From assembly GCA_951406725.2 (NCBI GenBank), contig OX597820.1:33294001-33358000 (forward strand): a DNA stretch of 64,000 nt, given 5' to 3'. Positions 268 through 56,629 of the stretch are shown piece by piece. The translations under genes and the position numbers were made by a program. This DNA is from Octopus vulgaris. Taxonomy: Eukaryota. Each line of letters begins with the position of its first letter. The stretch's first letter is position 1. A model generated the notes under the pieces. It was not told the DNA's origin, did not search any database, and was given only the letters and a program-made list of their open reading frames with translations.

Positions 268-480
268 TAATTGATTCCTGACAGTGGACTAACAAAGGCT
301 AAATCAAATGGAGTTCTAGATACATATGTGTGCGCGTGTATGCATGTATGTATATACATAAACTTACATATGCATTTAAAATTAGTTTCATTTTTGCTAT
401 ATACATATGTACATACATATATACTTATATATTTACGTACATAGATAAGTAGACAGGTAAATCGATATATATATGTATGT

Positions 481-707
481 GCGAGCTGGCAGAAACGTTA
501 GCACGCCGGGCGAAATGCGTAGCCGTATTTCGTCTGCCGTTACGTTCTGGGTTCAAATTCCGCCGAGGTCGACTTTGCCTTTCATCCTTTCGGGGTCGAT
601 AAATTAAGTACCAGTTACGCACTGGGGTTGATGTAATCGACTTAATCCGTTTGTCTGTCCTTGTTTGTCCCCTCTGTGTTTAGCCCCTTGTGGGTAGTAA
701 AGAAATA
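481..707 (+). mobile_element. tRNA-derived SINE, family A (Nin/Deu-like core)
   Basis: A-box-like GAGCTGGCAGAAACGTTAG, B-box-like GTTCAAATTCC and core GCCTTTCATCCTTTCGGGGTCGATAAA. Near-identical copies at 4180, 14483 and 63873. Confidence 0.85.
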
Positions 708-1760: not shown

Positions 1761-2057
1761 TAGTTCGTATTGTTGTTATTACGATTGATATTGCTAGTAT
1801 TGTGGTATTGTTGGTATTATCATTGTTTTGATGCTGTTATTGTTATTGACAATGTCCTTATTGTTATTGTTATTATTCCTGTTGTTGTTGCCGTCAAAAT
1901 GTCGTCAAAGACTTTCGTTACTTTAACAATTTATTTTCTCACAACTTTCGTAATTTATTGTAGTTTCAGAAACAACGCCCTCGGAAGTATTTCCTGCATG
2001 CATACATACATACATACATACATACATACATACATACATACATACATACATACAGCA

Positions 2058-2181
2058 CACATTCATGGAAAAAGTACCCTGTTAATGCAGTTGAAATTCC
2101 AGTGAAGGAGCCTTGGATCTAGGCTAGAAACCAGCTCTTTTTCTTTTCCCAAGAAGTTTTGAAATAAAACTGTATAGTGAC
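2058..2181 (+). mobile_element. 3' terminus only of the (CATA)n-associated R4-like retrotransposon
   Basis: GTTGAAATTCCAGTGAAGGAGCCTTGGATCTAGG...TTGAAATAAAACTG..TGACAT matches the reverse complement of 4908-5005. Preceded by (CATA)n and followed by CATA-like sequence. Confidence 0.75.
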
Positions 2182-2222
2182 ATATATACATGCATACTTA
2201 CACACATACACACATACATTTG

Positions 2223-3765: not shown

Positions 3766-4060
3766 TAATTCTTTGTAAGCCCAGTACTTATTCTATCGGT
3801 CTCTTTTGCCGAACTGCTAAGTGACGGGGACGTAAACACACTAGCAATTCTAGGGAGACAAACACAAACACACAAACACACACATATATATATATACATA
3901 TATACGACAGGCTTCTTTCAGTTTCCGTCTACCAAATCCACTCACAAGGCATTGGTCGGTCCGGGGCTATAGAAGAAGACACTTGCCCAAGATGCCACGC
4001 AGTGGACTGAACCCGGAACCATGTGGTTGGTTAGCAAGCTCCTTACCACACAGCCACTCC

Positions 4061-4063: not shown

Positions 4064-4148
<85 letters not shown>

Positions 4149-4179
4149 TGTATGTATGTATGACGGGCTTCTTTCAGTT

Positions 4180-4415
4180 ACTTATTTCTTTACTGCCCAC
4201 AAGGGGCTAAACACAGAGAGGACAAACAAAGACAGACAAACAGTTTAAGTCGATTATATCGACCCCAGTGCGTAACTGGTACTTATTTAATCGACCCCGA
4301 AAGGATGAAAGGCAAAGTCGACCTCGGTGGAATTTGAACTCAGAACGTAACGGCAGGCGAAATACCGCTAAGCATTTCGCCCGGCATGCTAACGTCTCTG
4401 CCAGCTTGCCGCCTT
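4180..4415 (-). mobile_element. SINE family A
   Basis: Reverse complement of 481-707. Confidence 0.85.
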
Positions 4416-4907
4416 GTTTCAGATACCGTCTAGTCTACCAAATCCACTCACAAGGCCTCGGTCGGCCCGCAGTGGGACTGAACCCAGAACTATCTGGTTG
4501 GGAAACAAGCTTCTTACCACACGCCCACGCCCAAAAATGTGTAAGCCTTTTCTATAACTTTCTATGTTTGCCAAAACTTTGAGATGTTGTGCATAAATTT
4601 CTATATCTTAAATATATGTATGTGTGTCTGTGTGTGTGTGTGTGTTTATTTTTATGCACACATGATAAAAACAATTTTACATTAATCTGATGGGTTACTC
4701 TACACATTTGTAGAGTATATATTTATTATTTTTAAGCAAGAAAAGCTTATTAGTATTTGAAGTAGTGACTTTAAAATTTCCAGCAGATAAGCAATCGTTG
4801 CAAGATGGGTTGACTGACCGTAACTTCGAAGTCACTATCAATAATATTATTGTTCAAGAATAATAATATATGCACGACTGTATATATGTATGTATGCATT
4901 ATGTATG

Positions 4908-5027
4908 AATGTCATTGATCAGCTTTATTTCAAGATTTCTTGCCAATAAAGTAAGAGCCTGTTTTTAACCTATATCCAAGTCTCCTTCATTGGAATTTCA
5001 ACATCACCAGCAGGACATTTTTGTATG

Positions 5028-5061
<34 letters not shown>

Positions 5062-6078
5062 TGTATGTATGTATGTATTTATGTATATATGTATGTACGT
5101 ATGTATGATTGTGTGTATGTATACGAGTAAGTTTTGTTTTACGCATATATTCTCATGAATATAGACATGCTCATATATATGTAAATGATAAACTTCTGTG
5201 AAGTTTTACAGGTTTTTACAGTTCCACTAATGGATTGGATCTGTAGTCTTCTAATTAGCTTTCACCTTCATGATTTTGAGACGCCTAATTTCTCAAGATT
5301 GGTATTTAGGTAGTATGTTACATATCCCAGGACCCCAAAAATTACAGGTATTAACCTGAAATTGTAATCTGGATAGAGTAATTACAAATTTCTCAATAGT
5401 TCAGCGTAGATATTCTCTTTTTCACTGCAGTTAATTCCCACAACTTTTCACAGTTTCTCCTCTCTATCCCAAATCATAACAGGTCTATTGCCCTTACATT
5501 TTATTGAGGTCTTCACCTGGAAATTCCACCAGTACTCCCTTTTTATTGTGAGTGGTTATGGCTTCTGCCATACTGTGGGTTCTTATTTCTTTCTCCTCGA
5601 GGTTATCCTTCCGACGGATTTTATTATAGAGTGTCCTAGCTACAACATCATATCACATCGGTAGATTATACCGTGATGACATCTTCGGTGTTAACTCCAC
5701 AACGTCTGCATCGGTTGTCACATTTTACTGCATTTCCTGCATCACTATCCCTTTTGTGCATTAGGTACTAGGTCGATATTTCTTGTTCCTGGATTGCAAA
5801 CGCATACCTTTCAAAGTGGGAGGTAGTTAGTACCCCGGCTATTGGTCCATGATGAACTGCTTTGATGCTCAATGTTACTATCGTCATCTGGGAGCTTTCT
5901 ACTAGCATGTCCATGTATAGTCTCATATAGACTTATCCTTTCATCTGATGACGCGTTTCGGTAGTCCTACGACTTCTTTGGGAATGTATTCTAGGTTATC
6001 AGACAAAAATTTGCTCAAAGAGCTGCCTTTCAAGTCTCATGATGTTATCAGCCTCATGTGTGCAAACTTGGTCAATGG
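4908..6078 (-). mobile_element. 5'-truncated, decayed R4-like RLE non-LTR retrotransposon embedded in (CATA)n
   Basis: Minus-strand translation fragments: IHGH, FAIQEQEIST, CDNRCRRCG (Zn knuckle start), YDVVARTLY (RHD region), WWNFQVKT..KGNRP (PD region), EKENIYAELLRNL, IPVIFGVLG. A 3'UTR follows. (TATG)n lies at the 5' junction and in the UTR; a short TATG-rich stretch lies at the 3' end. Confidence 0.8.
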
Positions 6079-6109
<31 letters not shown>

Positions 6110-6143
6110 TGTATGTATGTATGTATGTATGTATGTATGTATG

Positions 6144-6209
<66 letters not shown>

Positions 6210-6656: not shown

Positions 6657-7034
6657 GTATGTATATATGTATGTATGTATGAATATTATTTATTTATCTA
6701 TTTCTCTATTTTTCTATTTATATACTGCTGAAAGTAAACATTTGAACAATTTTTTCGAGCTGTAGTCTTTCTTACGGGATACTATTTATATAGATATATA
6801 AATTTAGTCATAAATTTGACAATACCATTAACAGACTTCAGTGTCGATCAATGCTTCAAAAATGCTAACGCTGCCTAGTCCATGAGGTGTTTGTAAACAA
6901 CACAGGAAATAGTAGAGATGTGATGTAATTTATGAAAACTTTGTTAAAAACATTCTGGTATCCATCAGTTATAATTTTATAAATATACTTGTTAGATTTA
7001 TGTCTATAAATAATTCGTTCTACTGAAATTTGTG

Positions 7035-7210
7035 GGCTGGGGCCGAGTCAATTACATTGATCCCAGTATATGATTGGTGCTTATTTTATCAACCCCGAAA
7101 GGATGAAAGACAAAGTTGATCTTGGCAGGATCTGAACTCAGAACATAAAGATGACAATGCTGCTAAGCATTCTGCCCAGCGTTCTAACGATTATGCCAGC
7201 TTAACGCCTT
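7035..7210 (-). mobile_element. SINE family A, diverged
   Basis: CCCCGAAAGGATGAAAGACAAAG core in reverse orientation. Confidence 0.7.
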
Positions 7211-15421: not shown

Positions 15422-17048
15422 CAGTTACGGCCAAAATGTTCAGAACGGTATTGCTTTCTCAGAAAAGTAAGTATAAGTTTTTATCAAAGTAGTTTTATAT
15501 TCATAATTTTCACAGACAATAAATACAATATTAATTGTTATTGTCTGAGATTTTGGTGTAATTTGAGAGGATAATACAAAAGTTATGGATGATTTAGTGA
15601 TTTACTGCAAAACCCATGGCGGCCAAAATGATCAGAACGGTTGAAAAAATAACAAAATAATCAAAAATGACAGAGAATACTGGAATTATTTAATATTTAG
15701 TGTGAAGCCCTTTAGCTTCAATCACACTCTGACATCTTCGACTGCATGAGGAAATTAAATTTTCAATTTCTTGCTGGGTGATCTTATTCCATTCTTCCTG
15801 AAGGGCATTCCATAATTGCTCAGTTGTTTTAGGATTTCTGGCTTTCGAACGTTCTCCTAGAATATTCCATACATTTTCAATAGGATTGAGATCTGGGCTT
15901 TGAGCAGGCCAATCCATAACAATAACCTTTTCAGCCTTGAGGAAGTTCATGACCACTTTAGCCTTGTGACATGGGGCATTGTCCTGCATGAATATGGGTG
16001 GTCGCTTAGTTGAATTTCTCAGCACAGGCAAGACATGATCTTTTACAAGTTGTTTATAAACTCCTGCATTTACCTTTCCATGTAATCGCACCAAAGGGCC
16101 CACACAATCTCCAGATATCATCCCCCAAACCATGACACTTCCTCCACCGAATTTAACACTAGTCTTAAGGCATTTAGGCGACAATTTTTCACCTACTTTT
16201 CTACGAACGTACCTTTTCCCATCTGAGCCAAATAACATAAACTTAGATTCATCACTGAAATGCACCGTTTGCCATTTTTCTTGAGACCACAACACATGTT
16301 CGGTTGCAAAGGTAAGACGACACTTTTTATTCTTGGAGCTGATCAGTGGCTTCACTGCAGGTGCTCTTGCTTGTAGGTCATGTTCAACTAAACGACGAGA
16401 CACAGTTTTTCGAGATAAAGTTTTCTTCAATACAATGCTCATTTTCCGAGAACCAGCAGCAGCAGTTTTAAATTCTGTCCTTTTTAACCAACTTTACCAT
16501 AGCACGATCTTCTCTCTTGGTCGTTTTCTTGGCCTACCTGTAAACTTTCTTGCTTCACACGAACCACAATCATCGTAGACCTTAAGAATACCGTGTACAA
16601 CACTTTTTGACTTGTTAACAATCTTTGCAATAGATCCAATACTTAAATTATCCTTCCTTCGAAGCTTAATAATCTGCTGACGAATTGGTAACAGAGTAAG
16701 TGGCATTATATTAACAAAGTACACTGCAAATATTCTTACTAATGTTTAGTAAACGAACCATCACGTAAACAAATTCAAAACATTAGAGTTCGCCGGTTAA
16801 ATATACTAAAACACGGAGTAAAAGCAACCGTTCTGATCATTTTGGCCGCCATGGGTTTTGCAGTAAATCACTAAATCATCCATAACTTTTGTATTATCCT
16901 CTCAAATTACACCAAAATCTCAGGCAATAACAAATAACATCGTATTTATTGTCTGTGAAAATTATAGAATATAAAACAACTTTGATAAAAAATTATATCT
17001 ACTTTTCTGACGAAAACAATGCCGTTCTGAACATTTTGGCCGCCACTG
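15422..17048 (-). mobile_element. Tc1 DNA transposon, IR/DR type, ~220-bp TIRs, TA target site
   Basis: TIRs 15422-15643 and 16825-17048. Each has two direct repeats GGCCAAAATG(T/A)TCAGAACGG. Flanked by TA within (TA)n. DD34E transposase inside. Confidence 0.95.
15690..16706 (-). pseudogene. Tc1 transposase (DD34E), ~338 aa, with two compensating 1-bp frameshifts
   Basis: N-terminal HTH and GRPRK, then FSDESKF, MQDNAPCH, SPDLNPIE (34 residues between D and E). The N- and C-terminal ORFs share one frame; indels lie near 16525 and 16473. Confidence 0.9.
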
Positions 17049-19358: not shown

Positions 19359-19416
19359 TAAAATATTATTATTAAAAATATTATTAAAAATAATAATAAT
19401 AATAAAAAGAAACTCA

Positions 19417-19447
<31 letters not shown>
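19212..19447. repeat. (AAT)n switching to (ATT)n microsatellite
   Basis: Direct inspection. Confidence 0.95.
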
Positions 19448-19449
<2 letters not shown>

Positions 19450-22422
19450 GACAATCTTTTGCACTTCTTGCAGGGATGGTAAGCCAGGGATCATTCTCAT
19501 ATAATTTTCGGTTCCCTTCTTGATCATTCCTAGTGCTCCTACGATCACTGGTATTGTAACCGCCTTGAGATGCCACATTTTCTCAATTTCAATGAGTAGG
19601 TCTTTATATTTTCTGAGCTTGTCAAACTCTTTCGCTGAGATATTATGATCACAGGGGATGCTCATGTCGATCAATAAGCAAACTTTATTGTTTTGGTCTT
19701 TCACAACAATATCTGGTTTATTGGCCTTGATGGTTCGGTCTGTATGTACTGGAAAGTCCCACAGAATGGTTACATTTTCTCCTTCAGTTACAGCCTCAGG
19801 GTGGTGATTATACCACTTGTCGGCAGTTTTGATATTGTAATGCCGACTTATTAGCCAGTGGAGATATTGGCCAACTCTGTCATGTCTTAATTTATACTCC
19901 ACTGGTGCTAAGACTTTACATCCAGAGATTAGGTGGTCCACTGTTTCAATCATGTCGTTGCAGAATCGGCATTTTGGGTCTGCTCCATTTTTCATCACAT
20001 TGGCCTGGTAGTTCCGGGTTAATAGGCTTTGGTCTTGAGCAGCCAGGATGAAACCTTCGCTCTCTGCTTTTAGCCCTGAGCTCCGCAGCCACTGATGGGT
20101 TTGCTTCTGGTCAACATCAGCTTGTTTGCTGCGGGTCACATATTTGCCGTGCAGAGGTTTCTCCTCCCACCTATCAGCCAATTGCTCGTGCGCTTTTTTC
20201 ATTGCCATCATTTTCACCTTCTTTGCAACAATAGTTGCCGTACTTCCCTCGGGTTGTTCAGTTTGGGTATCCTGCACGAGATCAATAGCAAATTTTTTGC
20301 TTTCCTTGATGATAGAATGAAGCTTCTTTCGTCTCTCGTGATTTTCCACGAGCTTTAGCATCCAGTCATTCGATATTTCGAGATATTTGGCCAGTCCAAT
20401 TGTGGTTGTTTTGTAAGCTATTTCAAATTGGATCAGGCCTCGACCTCCTTGGGCTCTGGGAAGGTAAAGGCGATCTACGTCTGCCTTTGGGTGGTGCATC
20501 CTATTACAACTCAGCAGCTTGCGTATTTTTCTATCTATATTCTTTACTTCACTCATATTCCAGTTCAACACATTGTAGCTATAAGTAACAACTGGAACTG
20601 CTAAGGAATTTATAGCTAATACCTTGTTACGTGCATTTAGTTCAGATTTCAGGACTGCACGAACTCTCCTATAACATTCCTTCCTGATTTTCTCTTTCAT
20701 GCTTGCATGCTGAATACCAGAGCCTTCATTTATCCCTAAATATTTGTATGTCTGTTCTTGCTCAAGCTCTCTTATGACTGTGTCAACATCTAACACGACT
20801 GAATTTGTGGTCTTCACTTTCCCTTTCTGGAAAGTGGCCTTGGCACACTTCTCAAGTCCAAACTCCATCCCGATGTCATCGCTGAATGCTTTCACTGTGC
20901 GCAATAGGCCTTCAAGTTCATTATTGTCTTTACCATAAAGTTTTAAGTCATCCATATAAAATAGATGGCTTATTTTTTTATTGGCAATTTTATACCCATA
21001 CCCTGTTCTGTTTAATTCACTTGTAAGGGGTATTAGGGCTATGCAGAATATTAAAGGTGAAAGTGAGTCACCTTGAAAAATTCCACAGTTGATGTTTATA
21101 TTTTCTGAGGCAAGTACTCCATTAGAGTGGTATAATTGGAGATTCGTATTCCACAACGACATATTGTGCTTCAGGAAGTTTGAAATCACAGGGGAAATTT
21201 TAAAGATGTCCAGCGATCTCAAGATCCATGGATGCGGTATACTGTCGAAGGCCTTTTTATAGTCAATCCATGCGGTGCTGAGATTTCTGCGCTTGTTGTG
21301 ACAGTTCTCAAGGATCATACGATTGATTAGCAGTTGATCTTTGCATCCGTAAGAGCCTCGGCGGCACCCTTTTTGTTCAATGGGGAAAATATCGTTCTTC
21401 TCCATGAATGCATATGTTTTCTCCGCCAGGATAGATGTTAGGATTTTATACGTGGTGGATAGACAGGTTATAGGCCGATAGTTTTTTGGAAGGTTGGTTT
21501 CGTTATTCTTTGGGAGTAGGTAAGTAATGCCACTTGCTAACCATTCAGGTGTTTTCTTTGGGTCTCTCAAAATTCCATTAAGCAGCTGAACTAGCTTACC
21601 GTGTGCGCACGGGAGCGATGCGAGCCAGAAATTCGGCACCCTATCTTTACCGGGGGATTTCCAATTATGGGCCTTCGTGAGTGCCTTTCTTAGGTCTGCT
21701 ATTGTGATGTCTTCCCATGCTTGTTGTTGTAAATTTTGGTAGGATCCTTGAGTTTGTATAATCCAGTCTGCATTTATGTTGTACGTCTTCTTGTCACTCC
21801 AAATCCTTTCCCAAAAGTTTTGAACTTCTTCCATGGGAGGAGGGTCTTTAACGGTTACTTTCTCCTTCCCTATTTCTCTGTAGAATTTTTTGGCATTGGA
21901 TGTGAACAGCTTATTTTGCTTGTAAAACTTGTTTCTCTTCTCAAATCTTCGTATTCTTTGGGCTTTTGCTTGGACTTTTTGTTTCAGCCTTTCTTTTATT
22001 GATATCAGTTCTTCTCTTGGTGAGGATCCAAATTTTCTCTTCATCTTTCTTCCTGTTCTGGATCTTACATCATTTCCACATATTAGTTCATTTAATATTG
22101 ATATTTCCCCTCTCATAAATTCAATCTCTTTTTCAATTTTACTTCTCCAGGTTTGATTTCTTCCCAGGTTTTGTTTTCTTTGTTTTTTCGGGGGCATACA
22201 GCTGGTTTCAATTGCCCTAGCAGAAGCGTAAATAATTTCATTTAACTCAGTAAAATCAGGTTTTAATTCTCGTATTATTTCATTTGTTACATAGTTGGCA
22301 ATTTGGATTTGTTTTTTATTTTGGTTTGTATTTGAGAGTTTATGAAGCGGTTCTCTATCATTCATACTTGTATGTCTTACAACTTCAAGCGTATTCAGGA
22401 TTTTCTGCCTCATTTCTGCCAT
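19414..22422 (-). CDS. Reverse transcriptase / CCHC zinc knuckle / restriction-like endonuclease polyprotein (frame open upstream to ~22677)
   Basis: Motifs KSPGKD, NYRPITCL, EQKGC, WIDYKKAFDS, GIFQGDSLSP, YMDD, YKYLG, GGRGL, HGKY, CRFC..ETVDHLISGC, RHD, KPDIVV..IDMSIP..K. No internal stops. The last codons read into (ATA)n. Confidence 0.92.
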
Positions 22423-22757
22423 AGACTCTCTGTGTTCTTCAGCAAATGCGAGATCTTCAGTTACTGTTGTTTTTTCGTTTTCCTGGCTATCTTTAACAGG
22501 TACAATAGAATTTCTTGTATCTTCAGGCCTTTGCGTACTTTGGTCAGATGGCAGTCTTTCAATTAAGCCTCGTGGCGGGCTATACTGTTCATCTGATTCT
22601 TCATTTCCTTTGTGTCTTATATTTATGTCATTTTCCGTTGCGTGCTTGATCGCACTTATTTCACTGTCTGTGAGTCTTATTTCTAAAGATATCCCTCCTC
22701 ACATTTGCTAATTTGTTCTCGTCCAAATAGGGCCTACTGTCTTGATTGTCTACTGTC

Positions 22758-22859: not shown

Positions 22860-22940
<81 letters not shown>
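22759..22940. repeat. (TTA)n microsatellite between the two Dong-like elements
   Basis: Direct inspection. Confidence 0.95.
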
Positions 22941-22943
<3 letters not shown>

Positions 22944-23944
22944 TAGTTTTATTTTTATAGCGTGCTTTCACTTCACTACCGAACGCAGCTCTGTGTGCCT
23001 TGGGTATGTGCTGTGATTTGTTGTGATGCTCTGATGGTTATTGTATGGAAAGTGTTCTGCGTAGGATGTGTGCAGTGCCTAGTAGTGCAATTTTCTGTAT
23101 GTTATATGTGTTTGTAAGCCCTGGTGTTTTTATTATGTATTTGTCTGAATATTTTTTTATCATGCCTAATGCACCTACTATGATAGGAATTGTTTCTGTT
23201 TTTAGATTCCTCATTCTGGTTATCTCTATTTCCAGGTCTTTGTATTTTGAAAGTTTCTCCATTTCTTTTAGAGACACGTTGTCATCTGCTGGTATTGATA
23301 CATCAATTAGAAAGCTTTTTTTTCTTCATGATCTCTGACAACTATATCTGGTCTGTTGGCCTTAATTTCTCTATCTGTGTGTATCGGCATATCCCAGAGT
23401 ATGGTTGCATTCTCGTTTTCTGTGACCTTTTCTGGTGGGTGCCTATACCATCTTTTTTCTGTTGTTATTTCATAATGTTGGCATAGCTTCCAGTGTATGT
23501 AGGTCCCAACTCTGTCATGTCTGTGAATATATTCCTTCTTAGCCAGGACTGGGCAGCCAGAGATAATATGATTTATTGTTTCTTGTCCATCTCCACATAT
23601 TCTGCAGTTACTTGTAATATTTCTTTTCATTACATGTTTTTGGTAATTTCTGGTGGGGAGGCTTTGGTCTTGTGCTGCAATTAAAAATCCCTCTGTCTCT
23701 GCTTTGAGTCCTGAGCTTCTCAACCATTGCTGGGATTTTTCTTTGTCTATTTCTTTTGCATTTAGTTTAGTCCAGTATTTACCATGAAGGGGCTTTTCTT
23801 GCCATCGTTTTATCATGGTTCTTTGCTGTTCTAGTTTTAGTTTGGATTTCATTTGTCTTATAGCTTTTGTTGTTTCTTCATCTTCTTCTTCTTCTTCTTC
23901 TTTTTCTTCTTCTTCTTCTTCTTCTTCTTCTTCTTCTTCTTCTT

Positions 23945-23975
<31 letters not shown>

Positions 23976-25581
23976 TTTGTTAGGTGGTATGATTTCTTGT
24001 TTGTATTTGTCAGCTTCCTTAAATACTGAGAACAGATTTTTGTTTTGCTCGTGTTTTGCCGCTATTTGTATCCGTTTTCCTTCCTTCTGAAGTAGATATT
24101 TTTGCAGTCCTATAGTGGTTATTTTATAGTAGTTTTCCAGCTGTATAAGGCCTCTACCAACTTCTATACGTTGTATATATAGTCTTTCTATGTCAGATTT
24201 TGGGTGATGCATCCTAGATCCTGTCATTATTTTTCTTGTTTTCCTATCTATTTCGGTCAGTTCATTTAGTGTCCAGTTAAGGATAGTGTAGCTGTAACTT
24301 ATAACTGGGACAGCTAAAGTGTTGATACCTATTATCTTGTTTTTAGCATTGAGCTCTGTCTTTAGTATTGATCTAACTCGTCTATAATATTCTTTCTTTA
24401 TTTTCTCTTTCATTTGTGTGTGTTGTGTCTTATCTAGTTCATGGATTCCTAAATATTTGTAAGTTTGGCTTTGGTCTAATTCTTTATTTCATTGGTTTTT
24501 TCTAGCGTTATGTTGCTACTCTTAACTAGTTTTCCTCTTTACAGGATTACTTTGGCGCATTTTTCTAATCCAAATTTCATATCTATTTCTTTGGTAAATC
24601 CATGAACTGTCTTTAATAGTGTTTCCAGCTGTTTGTCATTTGCAGCGTATAGTTTTAGGTCATCCATATATAAAAGGTGGCTGATCGTTTTGCCGTAACA
24701 TTTATATCCGCATCCAGTTCTATTTAGCATATCAGATAGAGGTGACAGTGCCAAGCAGAAAAGGAGTGGAGAGAGCGTGTCTCCCTGGAATATTCCTCTT
24801 CTAATGGGGATGGCTTTGGTTTTCATGAGTCCCTCTTTTGTTTGGAGCTGTAGCACTGTTCGCCAATTATTCATAGAGTGACCTATGTATTTTATAATTG
24901 TTGGTGCTACTTTGTTAATGGCTAGTGTTTCGAGGATCCATGTGTGGGGGATGCTATCAAACGCCTTTTTGTAGTCGATCCATGCCATACTGAGGCCTTT
25001 CTTCTTTCTGTGGCTGTCGCCAGTAATGGCTTTATTGATCATTAGTTGATCTTTACAGCCATATGAGCCTTTGCGGCATCCTTTCTGCTCTTCTGGAAAC
25101 AGGTTGTTTTCGTCCAGGTGCTTGTTTAATCTTTGTGATATTACTGCAGTAAATGCTTTGTACATTGTAGGGAGACAGGTTATAGGTTTGTAGTTTTCTG
25201 GTTTTGCTGTCTCATTGGATTTGGGAATTAAGATGGTTTTCCACTTCGTGAGCCATTCAGGCATTGTCTCTGGCTCTGCCAGTATGTTGTTAAAGCTTTC
25301 AGCCAGCTTTTTGTGTATTCCTGGTAGATATTTCAACCAGAAGTTGGGGATCTTGTCATGCCCAGGTGCCTTCCAGTTGCTTAGTCTTTGCAGTGCCTGG
25401 GTGACCTCTTCAGTTGTTATGGGGGTCCAAAGTTGCTCAGATGCTATGTTTGTTGTTTTAATACTCCTTTTTTTTTGGTTGTTCATTCGTCGACCATATT
25501 CCTTTCCAGAATTCTTCCACTTCTTCTGCCGTTGGTGCTGCAGTGATATCTATTTTATTCTTGCCAAGTTCTTGGTAGAAC

Positions 25582-25583
<2 letters not shown>
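22941..25583 (-). mobile_element. R4/Dong-clade retrotransposon, element 2 (different family), 5'-truncated, with intact 3'UTR
   Basis: ORF pieces 24539-25486 (RT: YKPITCL, DYKKAFDS, QGDTLSP, YMDD), 23973-24413, 23307-23852 (CRIC..HIISGC, RHD, RPD) and 23038-23277 (GTAHILRRTL*). A ~97-nt 3'UTR runs into (AAT)n. Frameshifts and stops present. Confidence 0.95.
23873..23972 (-). repeat. (GAA)n expansion inside the element-2 ORF
   Basis: (TCT)n on the plus strand, in frame as poly-Glu. Confidence 0.9.
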
Positions 25584-25647
<64 letters not shown>

Positions 25648-55754: not shown

Positions 55755-56430
55755 CAGGGGTTGGACAAAATAATGGAAACACCTAGCATCTTAGCATCAT
55801 GATTTTGAAATATCTATAAAACCATCAAAAGCTTGTTCATTTTTGTTTTTTGATTTATTATTTAATAACCAGTTGATCTAGCAAGCGGGGCCTCATATCA
55901 GTGAGGGTGGCCGGTGCGCATTGATGCCGTCGAGAGGTAGGCCCCGAAACGGCGCGCATTCTTTCCTGATGACCCCATACACTTGCTGGCTTCTGGTATG
56001 CGGAATTCTCGACTGGTAGCACTTGCATGTGCAAGTTGTTTGCAAGACATGTTGCTTAATATGTTTTGCTAAAATTGCTGTTTCTTATCAGATATCATCA
56101 GAAAAAGACAATTAAAATTCATTAAAATGACAGATCTGTCGGACTTTCAAAGAGGTCAAATTATTGGTGCTCGTATGGTAGGCACTAGTGTAATGAAAAC
56201 AGCCGAAATGTTTGGTGTATCAAGAAGTATTGTCTCGAAAGTAATGACACCCTTTGAGAAAGAAGGAAAAACCTCCTCGTCGAAACAAAACTCTGGAAGA
56301 AAACCAAAACTTTCAGATAAGGACCGTCGAACTCTTAAGCGAATTGTTAGAAAGGGTCACAAAAGTACAGCTCCCAAAATTACTGCAGAGCTTAATGAAC
56401 ACCTCGAGAACCAAGTTTCCACGAAAGCTG
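55755..56430 (+). mobile_element. 5' half of a Tc1 element (left TIR plus transposase HTH), interrupted by a GC-rich insert
   Basis: TA|CAGGGGTTGGACAAAATAATGGAAACA, then ORF 56127 MTDLSDFQRGQIIGAR...SGRKPKLSDKDRR. No catalytic domain. Confidence 0.85.
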
Positions 56431-56629
56431 TGTCTATCTGAATAGCTATACTGAATTTCTCGTTCCTGAACCTCAGGTAACTGCTAACAGGATATTTGAA
56501 GCTGTTTCCAGCTTTAGGTCCTCACTGGGCCTTCTGTTTTTAGATTTGAGGGTGATTTAGTGTAGAGGTCACCTCGTCGGCTCGTTTTTGCTGCCGGTAG
56601 TAAATATGCTAATGGGGGAAAGCGAGAGG

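What the first reader, a model, noticed from the sequence alone, without database searches (positions are those of the whole stretch)
4908..6078. An R4-like RLE retrotransposon family that appears specific for (CATA)n tetranucleotide repeats
Seen: a decayed RLE-type C-terminus (AIQEQEI, CRxC, NRP, K..Y) clearly distinct from the two TAA elements. Its 5' junction is in (TATG)n, it has a (CATA)n tract inside the 3'UTR, and its 3' end ...AATGACAT runs into CATA-like sequence. A second, 3'-only copy at 2058-2181 (opposite strand) is also in (CATA)n. Known: R4-clade Dong elements target TAA repeats. Inference: this lineage has switched target to (CATA)n, a specificity I do not recall being characterised. 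It would make a natural comparator for how RLE elements read microsatellites.
Basis: partly seen in the sequence, partly recalled or inferred. Interest (0 to 1): 0.72.

Follow-up and report, generated by a model that had tools for sequence, protein, structure and literature searches.

The report
Retrotransposons that insert into CATA repeats
This is a broken copy of an abundant, apparently extinct jumping-gene family, probably from an octopus, whose copies sit in (CATA)n microsatellites in one orientation; it likely chose those sites with its own DNA-cutting protein, whereas its described Dong relatives use (TAA)n.

Summary
Window 4911-6080 (-) is a dead, 5'-truncated copy of a ~4.1 kb single-ORF non-LTR retrotransposon (Myb-like domain, RT, CCHC, RLE); 2070-2181 (+) is a tail-only copy. 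CATA is the target, not only a tail. Sense-strand CATA lies within 40 bp upstream of 20/25 exact full-length 5' ends (all genome matches), 44/64 truncation points (9/23 in a second sample) and downstream of 44/64 3' ends. Background is 2.4%; antisense counts are 0-2. A young Dong-like family in the same genome shows TAA at 9/11 truncation points and CATA at 0/11. Two more families (68% and 51% aa identity) also use CATA (5' junctions 14/22, 14/21). All three lie on a deep branch apart from the TAA Dong-like elements, so this is an old lineage trait; a switch from TAA is not shown. The 3'UTR carries its own expandable CATA tract, which later copies re-use. ACAY targeting is known for the unrelated APE-type Waldo elements. 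I found no RLE precedent in the papers searched, but Repbase and Dfam could not be checked. Verdict: new variant of a known kind.

The parts
6081..6146 (-). (CATA)n tract at the 5' junction: upstream half of the inferred target
   Evidence: TRF (TATG)16.8 at 6080-6146, 100% matches; element homology starts at 6080
5181..6080 (-). Decayed 3' part of the single ORF (end of thumb/linker, CCHC knuckle, RLE); frameshifted, with internal stops and catalytic motifs damaged
   Evidence: 82% DNA identity to the family majority sequence
5123..5180 (-). Proximal 3'UTR (12-bp deletion near 5164)
5023..5122 (-). Internal (CATA)n tract of the 3'UTR; a family feature whose length runs from about 0 to 311 bp among 59 copies, re-used as an insertion site
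4911..5022 (-). Terminal 112 bp of the element, ending ...AATGAC
   Evidence: 88% to the family terminus
4879..4910 (-). Degenerate (CATA)n at the 3' junction: downstream half of the target and/or tail
   Evidence: TGTA x8.8, 74% matches
1997..2054 (+). (CATA)14.5 upstream of the second copy
2055..2181 (+). Second, tail-only copy (terminus at 2070-2181), resembling the minor 3'UTR subfamily B
2182..2219 (+). Degenerate CATA/CA repeat at the 3' junction of the second copy
   Evidence: ACATACAT x5 at 2180-2219

Best explanation
This is a dead, 5'-truncated copy of a ~4.1 kb single-ORF non-LTR retrotransposon family, probably of the R4/Dong clade, whose copies lie in (CATA)n microsatellites in one orientation, and which likely targeted them by target-primed reverse transcription with its own restriction-like endonuclease. 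Shown: domain content, strand-specific CATA at both junctions, one dominant junction phase (...GAC|ATAC at the 3' end; (ATAC)n|TCGAAG at the cleanest full-length 5' ends), nesting into the family's own 3'UTR and tail, and two related families with the same flanks. Inferred from R2 biochemistry: the protein binds the repeat, probably through its N-terminal Myb-like domain plus the RLE; it nicks the (TATG)n strand; the 3'-OH primes cDNA on an RNA ending in GAC(AUAC)n that can pair with the primer; second-strand joining happens inside the same tract. Each copy leaves CATA tracts in its tail and 3'UTR that expand by slippage and would serve as new targets.
For: 5' flanks (at least one perfect 8-mer of (CATA)n within 40 bp, sense strand): 20/25 exact full-length ends, all genome matches of the pattern; 22/31 full-length and 44/64 truncated ends in the search-selected set (it partly overlaps the 25). 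Antisense 0/25, 0/31, 2/64; background 2.4% sense and 1.9% antisense in 20 arbitrarily placed 10-kb stretches. 3' flanks 44/64, antisense 0; first four bases ATAC in 36/64. TAGA tracts are as common as CATA tracts in the background (29 vs 30) but occur at 0/95 5' junctions; TAA also 0/95. Control TAA family: 9/11 TAA, 0/11 CATA. Families 2 and 3: 5' 14/22 and 14/21, 3' 20/30 and 14/30. The majority protein has FFVDDLK, C-x2-C...H-x4-C, RHD and PD..E..K. Top PDB matches of a full-length relative's model are R2 proteins. The N-terminal domain folds as three helices with Myb/SANT/trihelix domains among the top matches (Z 5.0-5.8).
Against: About a third of truncation junctions lack CATA, and in a second sample picked with a foreign protein only 9/23 family-1 junctions have it (counted by hand). 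In 19 of 20 non-CATA junctions re-fetched, no more 5' part of the element appears within about 8 kb upstream (L223 has a 69-bp piece), so they are not simply interrupted copies; they are off-target insertions or later deletions. (CA)n also occurs at 6/95 5' junctions (background 0.7%), so the target may be ACAY-like. No target-site duplication or empty site could be resolved. The Myb-like fold match is at a middling Z that the tool itself calls inconclusive. No intact copy was found, so no activity was tested. No named R4, Rex6 or EhRLE sequence was in the trees.
Confidence: 0.85

Rival explanations
1. CATA is only a 3' tail made by RT slippage, and 5' CATA comes from new copies landing head-to-tail in older copies' tails.
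For: 3' ATAC is present even in copies with no 5' CATA. 11 of 66 CATA-flanked 5' junctions lie just downstream of an older same-family 3'UTR or tail.
Against: 55 of 66 have no family-1 3'UTR or tail within 450 bp upstream (families 2 and 3 were not screened in that count). Truncation points are scattered along the element yet abut CATA. Nesting into tails is itself CATA targeting.
Confidence: 0.05
2. The endonuclease is not sequence-specific. Specificity comes from pairing of the RNA's (AUAC)n 3' end with pre-existing nicks or breaks in (TATG)n, plus microhomology at the 5' end.
For: All three families end in AC|ATAC-like junctions. 15 of 18 clean 5' junctions share at least 1 base between element and repeat phase (about half expected once chance alignment extension is allowed for, my estimate). 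About 30-60% of truncated junctions are not CATA.
Against: RLE elements are mostly site-specific through their protein (PMC4640811), and R4/Dong carry a Myb-like domain proposed to direct integration (PMC7998251). The target is shared by families only 51% identical in the endonuclease region.
Confidence: 0.2
3. Passive accumulation: copies insert anywhere and survive beside microsatellites in a repeat-rich genome, or CATA tracts grow after insertion.
For: The genome is very rich in microsatellites (26 CATA/TATG tracts in this 64 kb).
Against: Strict strand bias, a dominant phase, absence of TAGA and TAA at junctions, and a co-resident family that picks TAA instead.
Confidence: 0.02

Closest known systems
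Dong (Bombyx mori), DongAg, DongBg and ostracod Dong1/2 (R4 clade)
   Same: Single ORF with N-terminal Myb/SANT-like domain, RT and RLE, no N-terminal zinc fingers, and insertion into a microsatellite (PMC7998251, PMC3812793; passages read). RT region 38% identical to a B. mori protein taken to be Dong-like (inference; the record is unnamed) and to the window's TAA elements.
   Different: Target is (CATA)n, not (TAA)n. It lies on a separate deep branch (SH-aLRT 100, quick trees). No HDV-like ribozyme was detected at the 5' end, whereas Dong and R4 have one (PMC3774820). The 3'UTR holds an internal copy of the target.
WaldoAg1, WaldoAg2, WaldoFs1 (R1 clade, APE endonuclease)
   Same: Target ACAY microsatellites, which include (ACAT)n = (CATA)n (PMC3812793).
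   Different: Waldo uses an APE endonuclease; this family uses a C-terminal RLE in one ORF, so the shared target is convergent.
R2 (R2Bm, R2Tg, R2Pm; PDB 8gh6, 9dou, 9nl2, 9nl3)
   Same: Same RT-linker-knuckle-RLE architecture; best sequence and fold matches in the PDB; the model for the inferred mechanism.
   Different: Only 16-18% identity; R2 targets 28S rDNA and has N-terminal zinc fingers (recalled, and PMC7998251).
Octopus 'LINE/Dong-R4' repeat-library families
   Same: Dong-R4 is reported as abundant in octopus and other coleoid genomes (PMC13282606, PMC8967140, PMC9115989); these families may well be inside that bin.
   Different: The passages returned for 'target', 'microsatellite' and 'Dong' give no insertion target and do not separate a CATA lineage.
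Argonauta hians hypothetical proteins GAB1597890.1 and GAB1605922.1
   Same: 55-56% RT identity to family 1; sister to family 3 (SH-aLRT 96).
   Different: Unannotated; their flanks could not be seen.

Membership tests
R4/Dong clade | Single ORF with RT followed by CCHC knuckle and PD-(D/E)xK RLE | tested here: met
   Family majority ORF of about 1,200 aa with one residual alignment frameshift; Pfam RVT_1 E 2.5e-10 on a real copy, zf-RVT below cut-off
R4/Dong clade | N-terminal Myb/SANT-like domain and no N-terminal zinc fingers | tested here: inconclusive
   Three-helix model, pLDDT 83.6; Myb/SANT/trihelix among the top matches at Z 5.0-5.8, nothing significant by Foldseek; aligns with the N-terminus of the B. 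mori protein; no C2H2 motif seen in the ORF
R4/Dong clade | RT phylogeny groups it with R4, Dong, Rex6 and EhRLE against R2, NeSL, CRE and HERO | tested here: inconclusive
   38% RT identity to Dong-like proteins versus 16-18% to R2 structures, but the trees held no named R4, Rex6, NeSL, CRE or HERO rows and no outgroup
R4/Dong clade | HDV-like ribozyme at the 5' end (shown for R4 and Dong) | tested here: inconclusive
   No ribozyme family among Rfam hits on 8 loci with 5' ends; my descriptor found 0 hits but was not validated on a known ribozyme
Dong (TAA-targeting families) | Inserts into (TAA)n | tested here: not met
   TAA at 0/95 5' and 0/64 3' junctions
Dong (TAA-targeting families) | Falls within the branch of TAA Dong-like proteins | tested here: not met
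   Separate branch, SH-aLRT 100 in both quick trees
Waldo (R1 clade) | Targets ACAY repeats | tested here: met
   CATA at 55/95 and CA at 6/95 5' junctions by perfect 12-mer
Waldo (R1 clade) | APE endonuclease upstream of RT | tested here: not met
   One ORF with a C-terminal RLE; top matches are R2 proteins
A described Repbase/Dfam family with this target | Sequence match and annotated target | not testable with these tools
   Neither database is available here

The most novel reading that the evidence does not exclude
(CATA)n targeting is the ancestral trait of a large, undescribed R4-related subclade spread across many animals, the first RLE lineage reading a tetranucleotide repeat. It breeds its own targets through a CATA tract in its 3'UTR and tail, and so helped build the CATA microsatellite load of octopus genomes.
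Probability: 0.35. Interest if true: 0.68.

Novelty: new variant of a known kind. Interest (0 to 1): 0.52.

Why it matters
How RLE retrotransposons read a periodic target is poorly understood, and they are being developed as gene-insertion tools. One genome here holds three CATA-reading families (51-68% identical in the endonuclease region) and a young TAA-reading family with the same architecture. That is a natural matched set for domain swaps between Myb-like domain, RLE and RNA tail. The same repeat being used by an APE element (Waldo) and an RLE element is a case of convergence. Self-seeding of targets would link retrotransposition to microsatellite abundance. The limits: no intact copy was found among those examined, and the target may already be noted in Repbase.

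Tried and rejected
Target-site duplication: none resolvable in 38 copies with both ends. Empty site: contigs of four runs laid on 4650-5020 showed the family terminus at high depth and TATG-type loose ends in all four coded organisms, but no listed piece bridged this locus. Flanks of outside relatives: one metagenome contig (L180) ends without visible flanks; genome contigs gave nothing; the one viral-contig hit (31% identity) was not examined. RNA: no RNA holder listed, which is not evidence either way. 5' ribozyme or xrRNA: no Rfam hit, descriptor 0 hits. No solved structure matched the RLE fragment alone. The protein atlas gave no answer. Monophyly of the three CATA families plus Argonauta: borderline rejection, p-AU 0.048. 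The careful tree did not finish; only quick trees are reported. Earlier scan notes held nothing on this family by sequence or words. Kojima & Fujiwara 2004 and the 2025 STITCHR paper were not held, so their target tables and supplements, which could bear on novelty, were not seen.

Full report
OBSERVATION. The element runs from 6080 down to 4911 on the minus strand. The ORF remnant is 6080-5181, then a short 3'UTR, a CATA tract (5122-5023) and a 112-bp terminus ending ...AATGAC. It is only weakly like the window's TAA elements (27% over 81 aa). The 2070-2181 (+) copy is the same terminus. The main copy is dead: deletions remove half the zinc knuckle and part of the RLE. The host is probably an octopus: the nearest named relative is from Argonauta hians, and earlier scan notes on this genome say octopus (unchecked).

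THE FAMILY. Searches of G000 gave 6,627 first-look candidates for the coding part, 1,894 for the terminus and 382 for the 5' part. An exact 25-mer across the 3' junction occurs 714 times. Two family pieces turned up in 200 kb of background, which suggests of the order of 10^4 copies (rough inference). Copies with a 5' end define a ~4.1 kb element. Its majority ORF is about 1,200 aa with FFVDDLK, a CCHC knuckle, RHD and PD..E..K. Copies are 80-94% identical to it, median 90% (113 long matches). The longest open frame among copies fetched was 241 aa, so the family looks extinct. Contigs of runs from four coded organisms hold its terminus with TATG-type flanks.

TARGET TEST. Criterion: a perfect 8-mer of (CATA)n within 40 bp. 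Background in 20 arbitrarily placed 10-kb stretches was 2.4% sense and 1.9% antisense. Full-length 5' ends: 22/31 in the search-selected set, and 20/25 for all exact genome matches of a 5'-end 23-mer (some loci are in both sets); antisense 0 in both. Truncated 5' ends: 44/64, antisense 2. 3' ends: 44/64, antisense 0, with ATAC as the first four bases in 36/64. By perfect 12-mer, the 95 5' junctions hold CATA 55 times, CA 6, TA 4, TAGA 0 and TAA 0, although TAGA tracts are as common as CATA tracts. As a control, the TAA family at window 19414-22698 shows TAA at 9/11 truncation points and CATA at 0/11.

RESULTS AGAINST. A second sample, picked with the Argonauta protein, gave 10/32 junction calls. 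Nine of these calls are cross-matches to other families below 75% identity; family 1 alone is 9/23 (counted by hand; two loci look like duplicates). In 19 of 20 non-CATA junctions re-fetched, no more 5' part of the element appears within about 8 kb upstream. A real minority of copies therefore lacks 5' CATA. No target-site duplication was resolvable in 38 copies, and no empty site was found.

SELF-MADE TARGETS. The internal 3'UTR tract varies from about 0 to 311 bp among 59 copies. A minor subfamily (6 of 85 termini, including the window's second copy) has a mostly non-repetitive segment there instead. Eleven of 66 CATA-flanked 5' junctions sit in an older copy's 3'UTR tract or tail. Eighteen termini have no upstream body within 400 bp; most of these start at a CATA tract, as expected for truncation in the internal tract or nested insertion (inference).

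SISTER FAMILIES. Family 2 (68% aa identity to family 1 in the C-terminal region; 5,586 candidates) ends ...GAGAC|ATAC, with CATA at 20/30 3' ends and 14/22 resolvable 5' junctions. Family 3 (51% to family 1, 63% to Argonauta; 2,531 candidates; median 86% to its own majority sequence) ends ...GAGAAC|ATAC, with CATA at 14/30 3' ends (antisense 5/30) and 14/21 5' junctions. Loci without a resolvable 5' junction (8 and 9 of 30) were dropped before these counts.

PHYLOGENY. In a quick RT tree of 91 rows (proteins of at least 600 aa, plus the window's and L180's, covering the RT stretch) family 1 lies in a 71-row branch (SH-aLRT 100, length 0.67) with Argonauta and unnamed assembly proteins. It is apart from the B. 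mori Dong-like protein and the window's TAA elements, which are 38-39% identical to it. In a C-terminal tree of 59 rows, families 1 and 2 are sisters (98) and family 3 pairs with Argonauta (96). Forcing all four together is borderline rejected (p-AU 0.048). CATA targeting thus may predate a radiation that includes many unnamed proteins, but their flanks are unseen. Both trees are midpoint-rooted and lack named clade references.

MECHANISM. A model of a full-length relative (P0282, pLDDT 86) matches R2 structures best. The family's N-terminal 75 residues fold as three helices resembling Myb/SANT/trihelix domains (middling Z). This agrees with the Myb-like domain reported for R4/Dong (PMC7998251). 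The CATA branch has a conserved RNR(D/N)Y arm before the first tryptophan and a different third helix from the TAA family's branch; these are candidate readers (hypothesis). The junction phase implies a nick in the (TATG)n strand and priming on an RNA end complementary to it (inference from R2). Protein readout versus RNA-tail pairing cannot be separated here. I favour protein readout helped by pairing.

LITERATURE. Ten searches were run; none listed an RLE element targeting CATA. Seen as passages only: PMC3812793 (Waldo ACAY, Dong TAA), PMC7998251 (Myb-like domain; Dong targets TAA in most insects, molluscs and cnidarians), PMC3774820 (HDV-like ribozymes of R4 and Dong), PMC3636483, PMC8967140, PMC9115989, PMC3124438, PMC5753468. 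PMC4640811: passages and reference list. PMC13282606: first third and passages. No supplements were read. Repbase, Dfam, Kojima & Fujiwara 2004 and the STITCHR survey were unavailable, so I put the chance that this target is already recorded at about 30%.

VERDICT. A real, well-supported target specificity in a Dong-related lineage: a new variant of a known kind. Interest 0.52.

Noticed in passing
window 19414-22757 (-): The TAA Dong-like element belongs to a very young family: 35 of the 40 best matches to a 651-bp piece are 100% identical at top score. The window copy is cut short at its 3' end, running into (TAA)n about 220 bp before the family's normal end.
   Followed up: partly
window ~22940-25584 (-): A second, frameshifted TAA Dong-like family (50-57% aa to the first) lies head-to-tail with it in TAA tracts.
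   Followed up: partly
window 15690-16493 (-) and 56073-56441 (+): Open frames that look like Tc1/mariner transposase (recognised by eye).
   Followed up: no
window 480-705, 3780-4060, 4145-4530, 7030-7210: Several SINE-like repeats, often beside TA or TATG microsatellites (family assignment not tested).
   Followed up: no
L247 (G000:C13:72926986-72930758), L200, L049: Family-1 sequence directly follows family-2 CATA tails, showing cross-family nesting at the shared target.
   Followed up: partly
L182, L186, L191, L203: Some tracts have drifted from (CATA)n to (CATC)n next to the element end.
   Followed up: no
L096-L134: Many copies with an intact 5' end lack the 3' part within the 7 kb fetched, suggesting frequent later disruption.
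   Followed up: no
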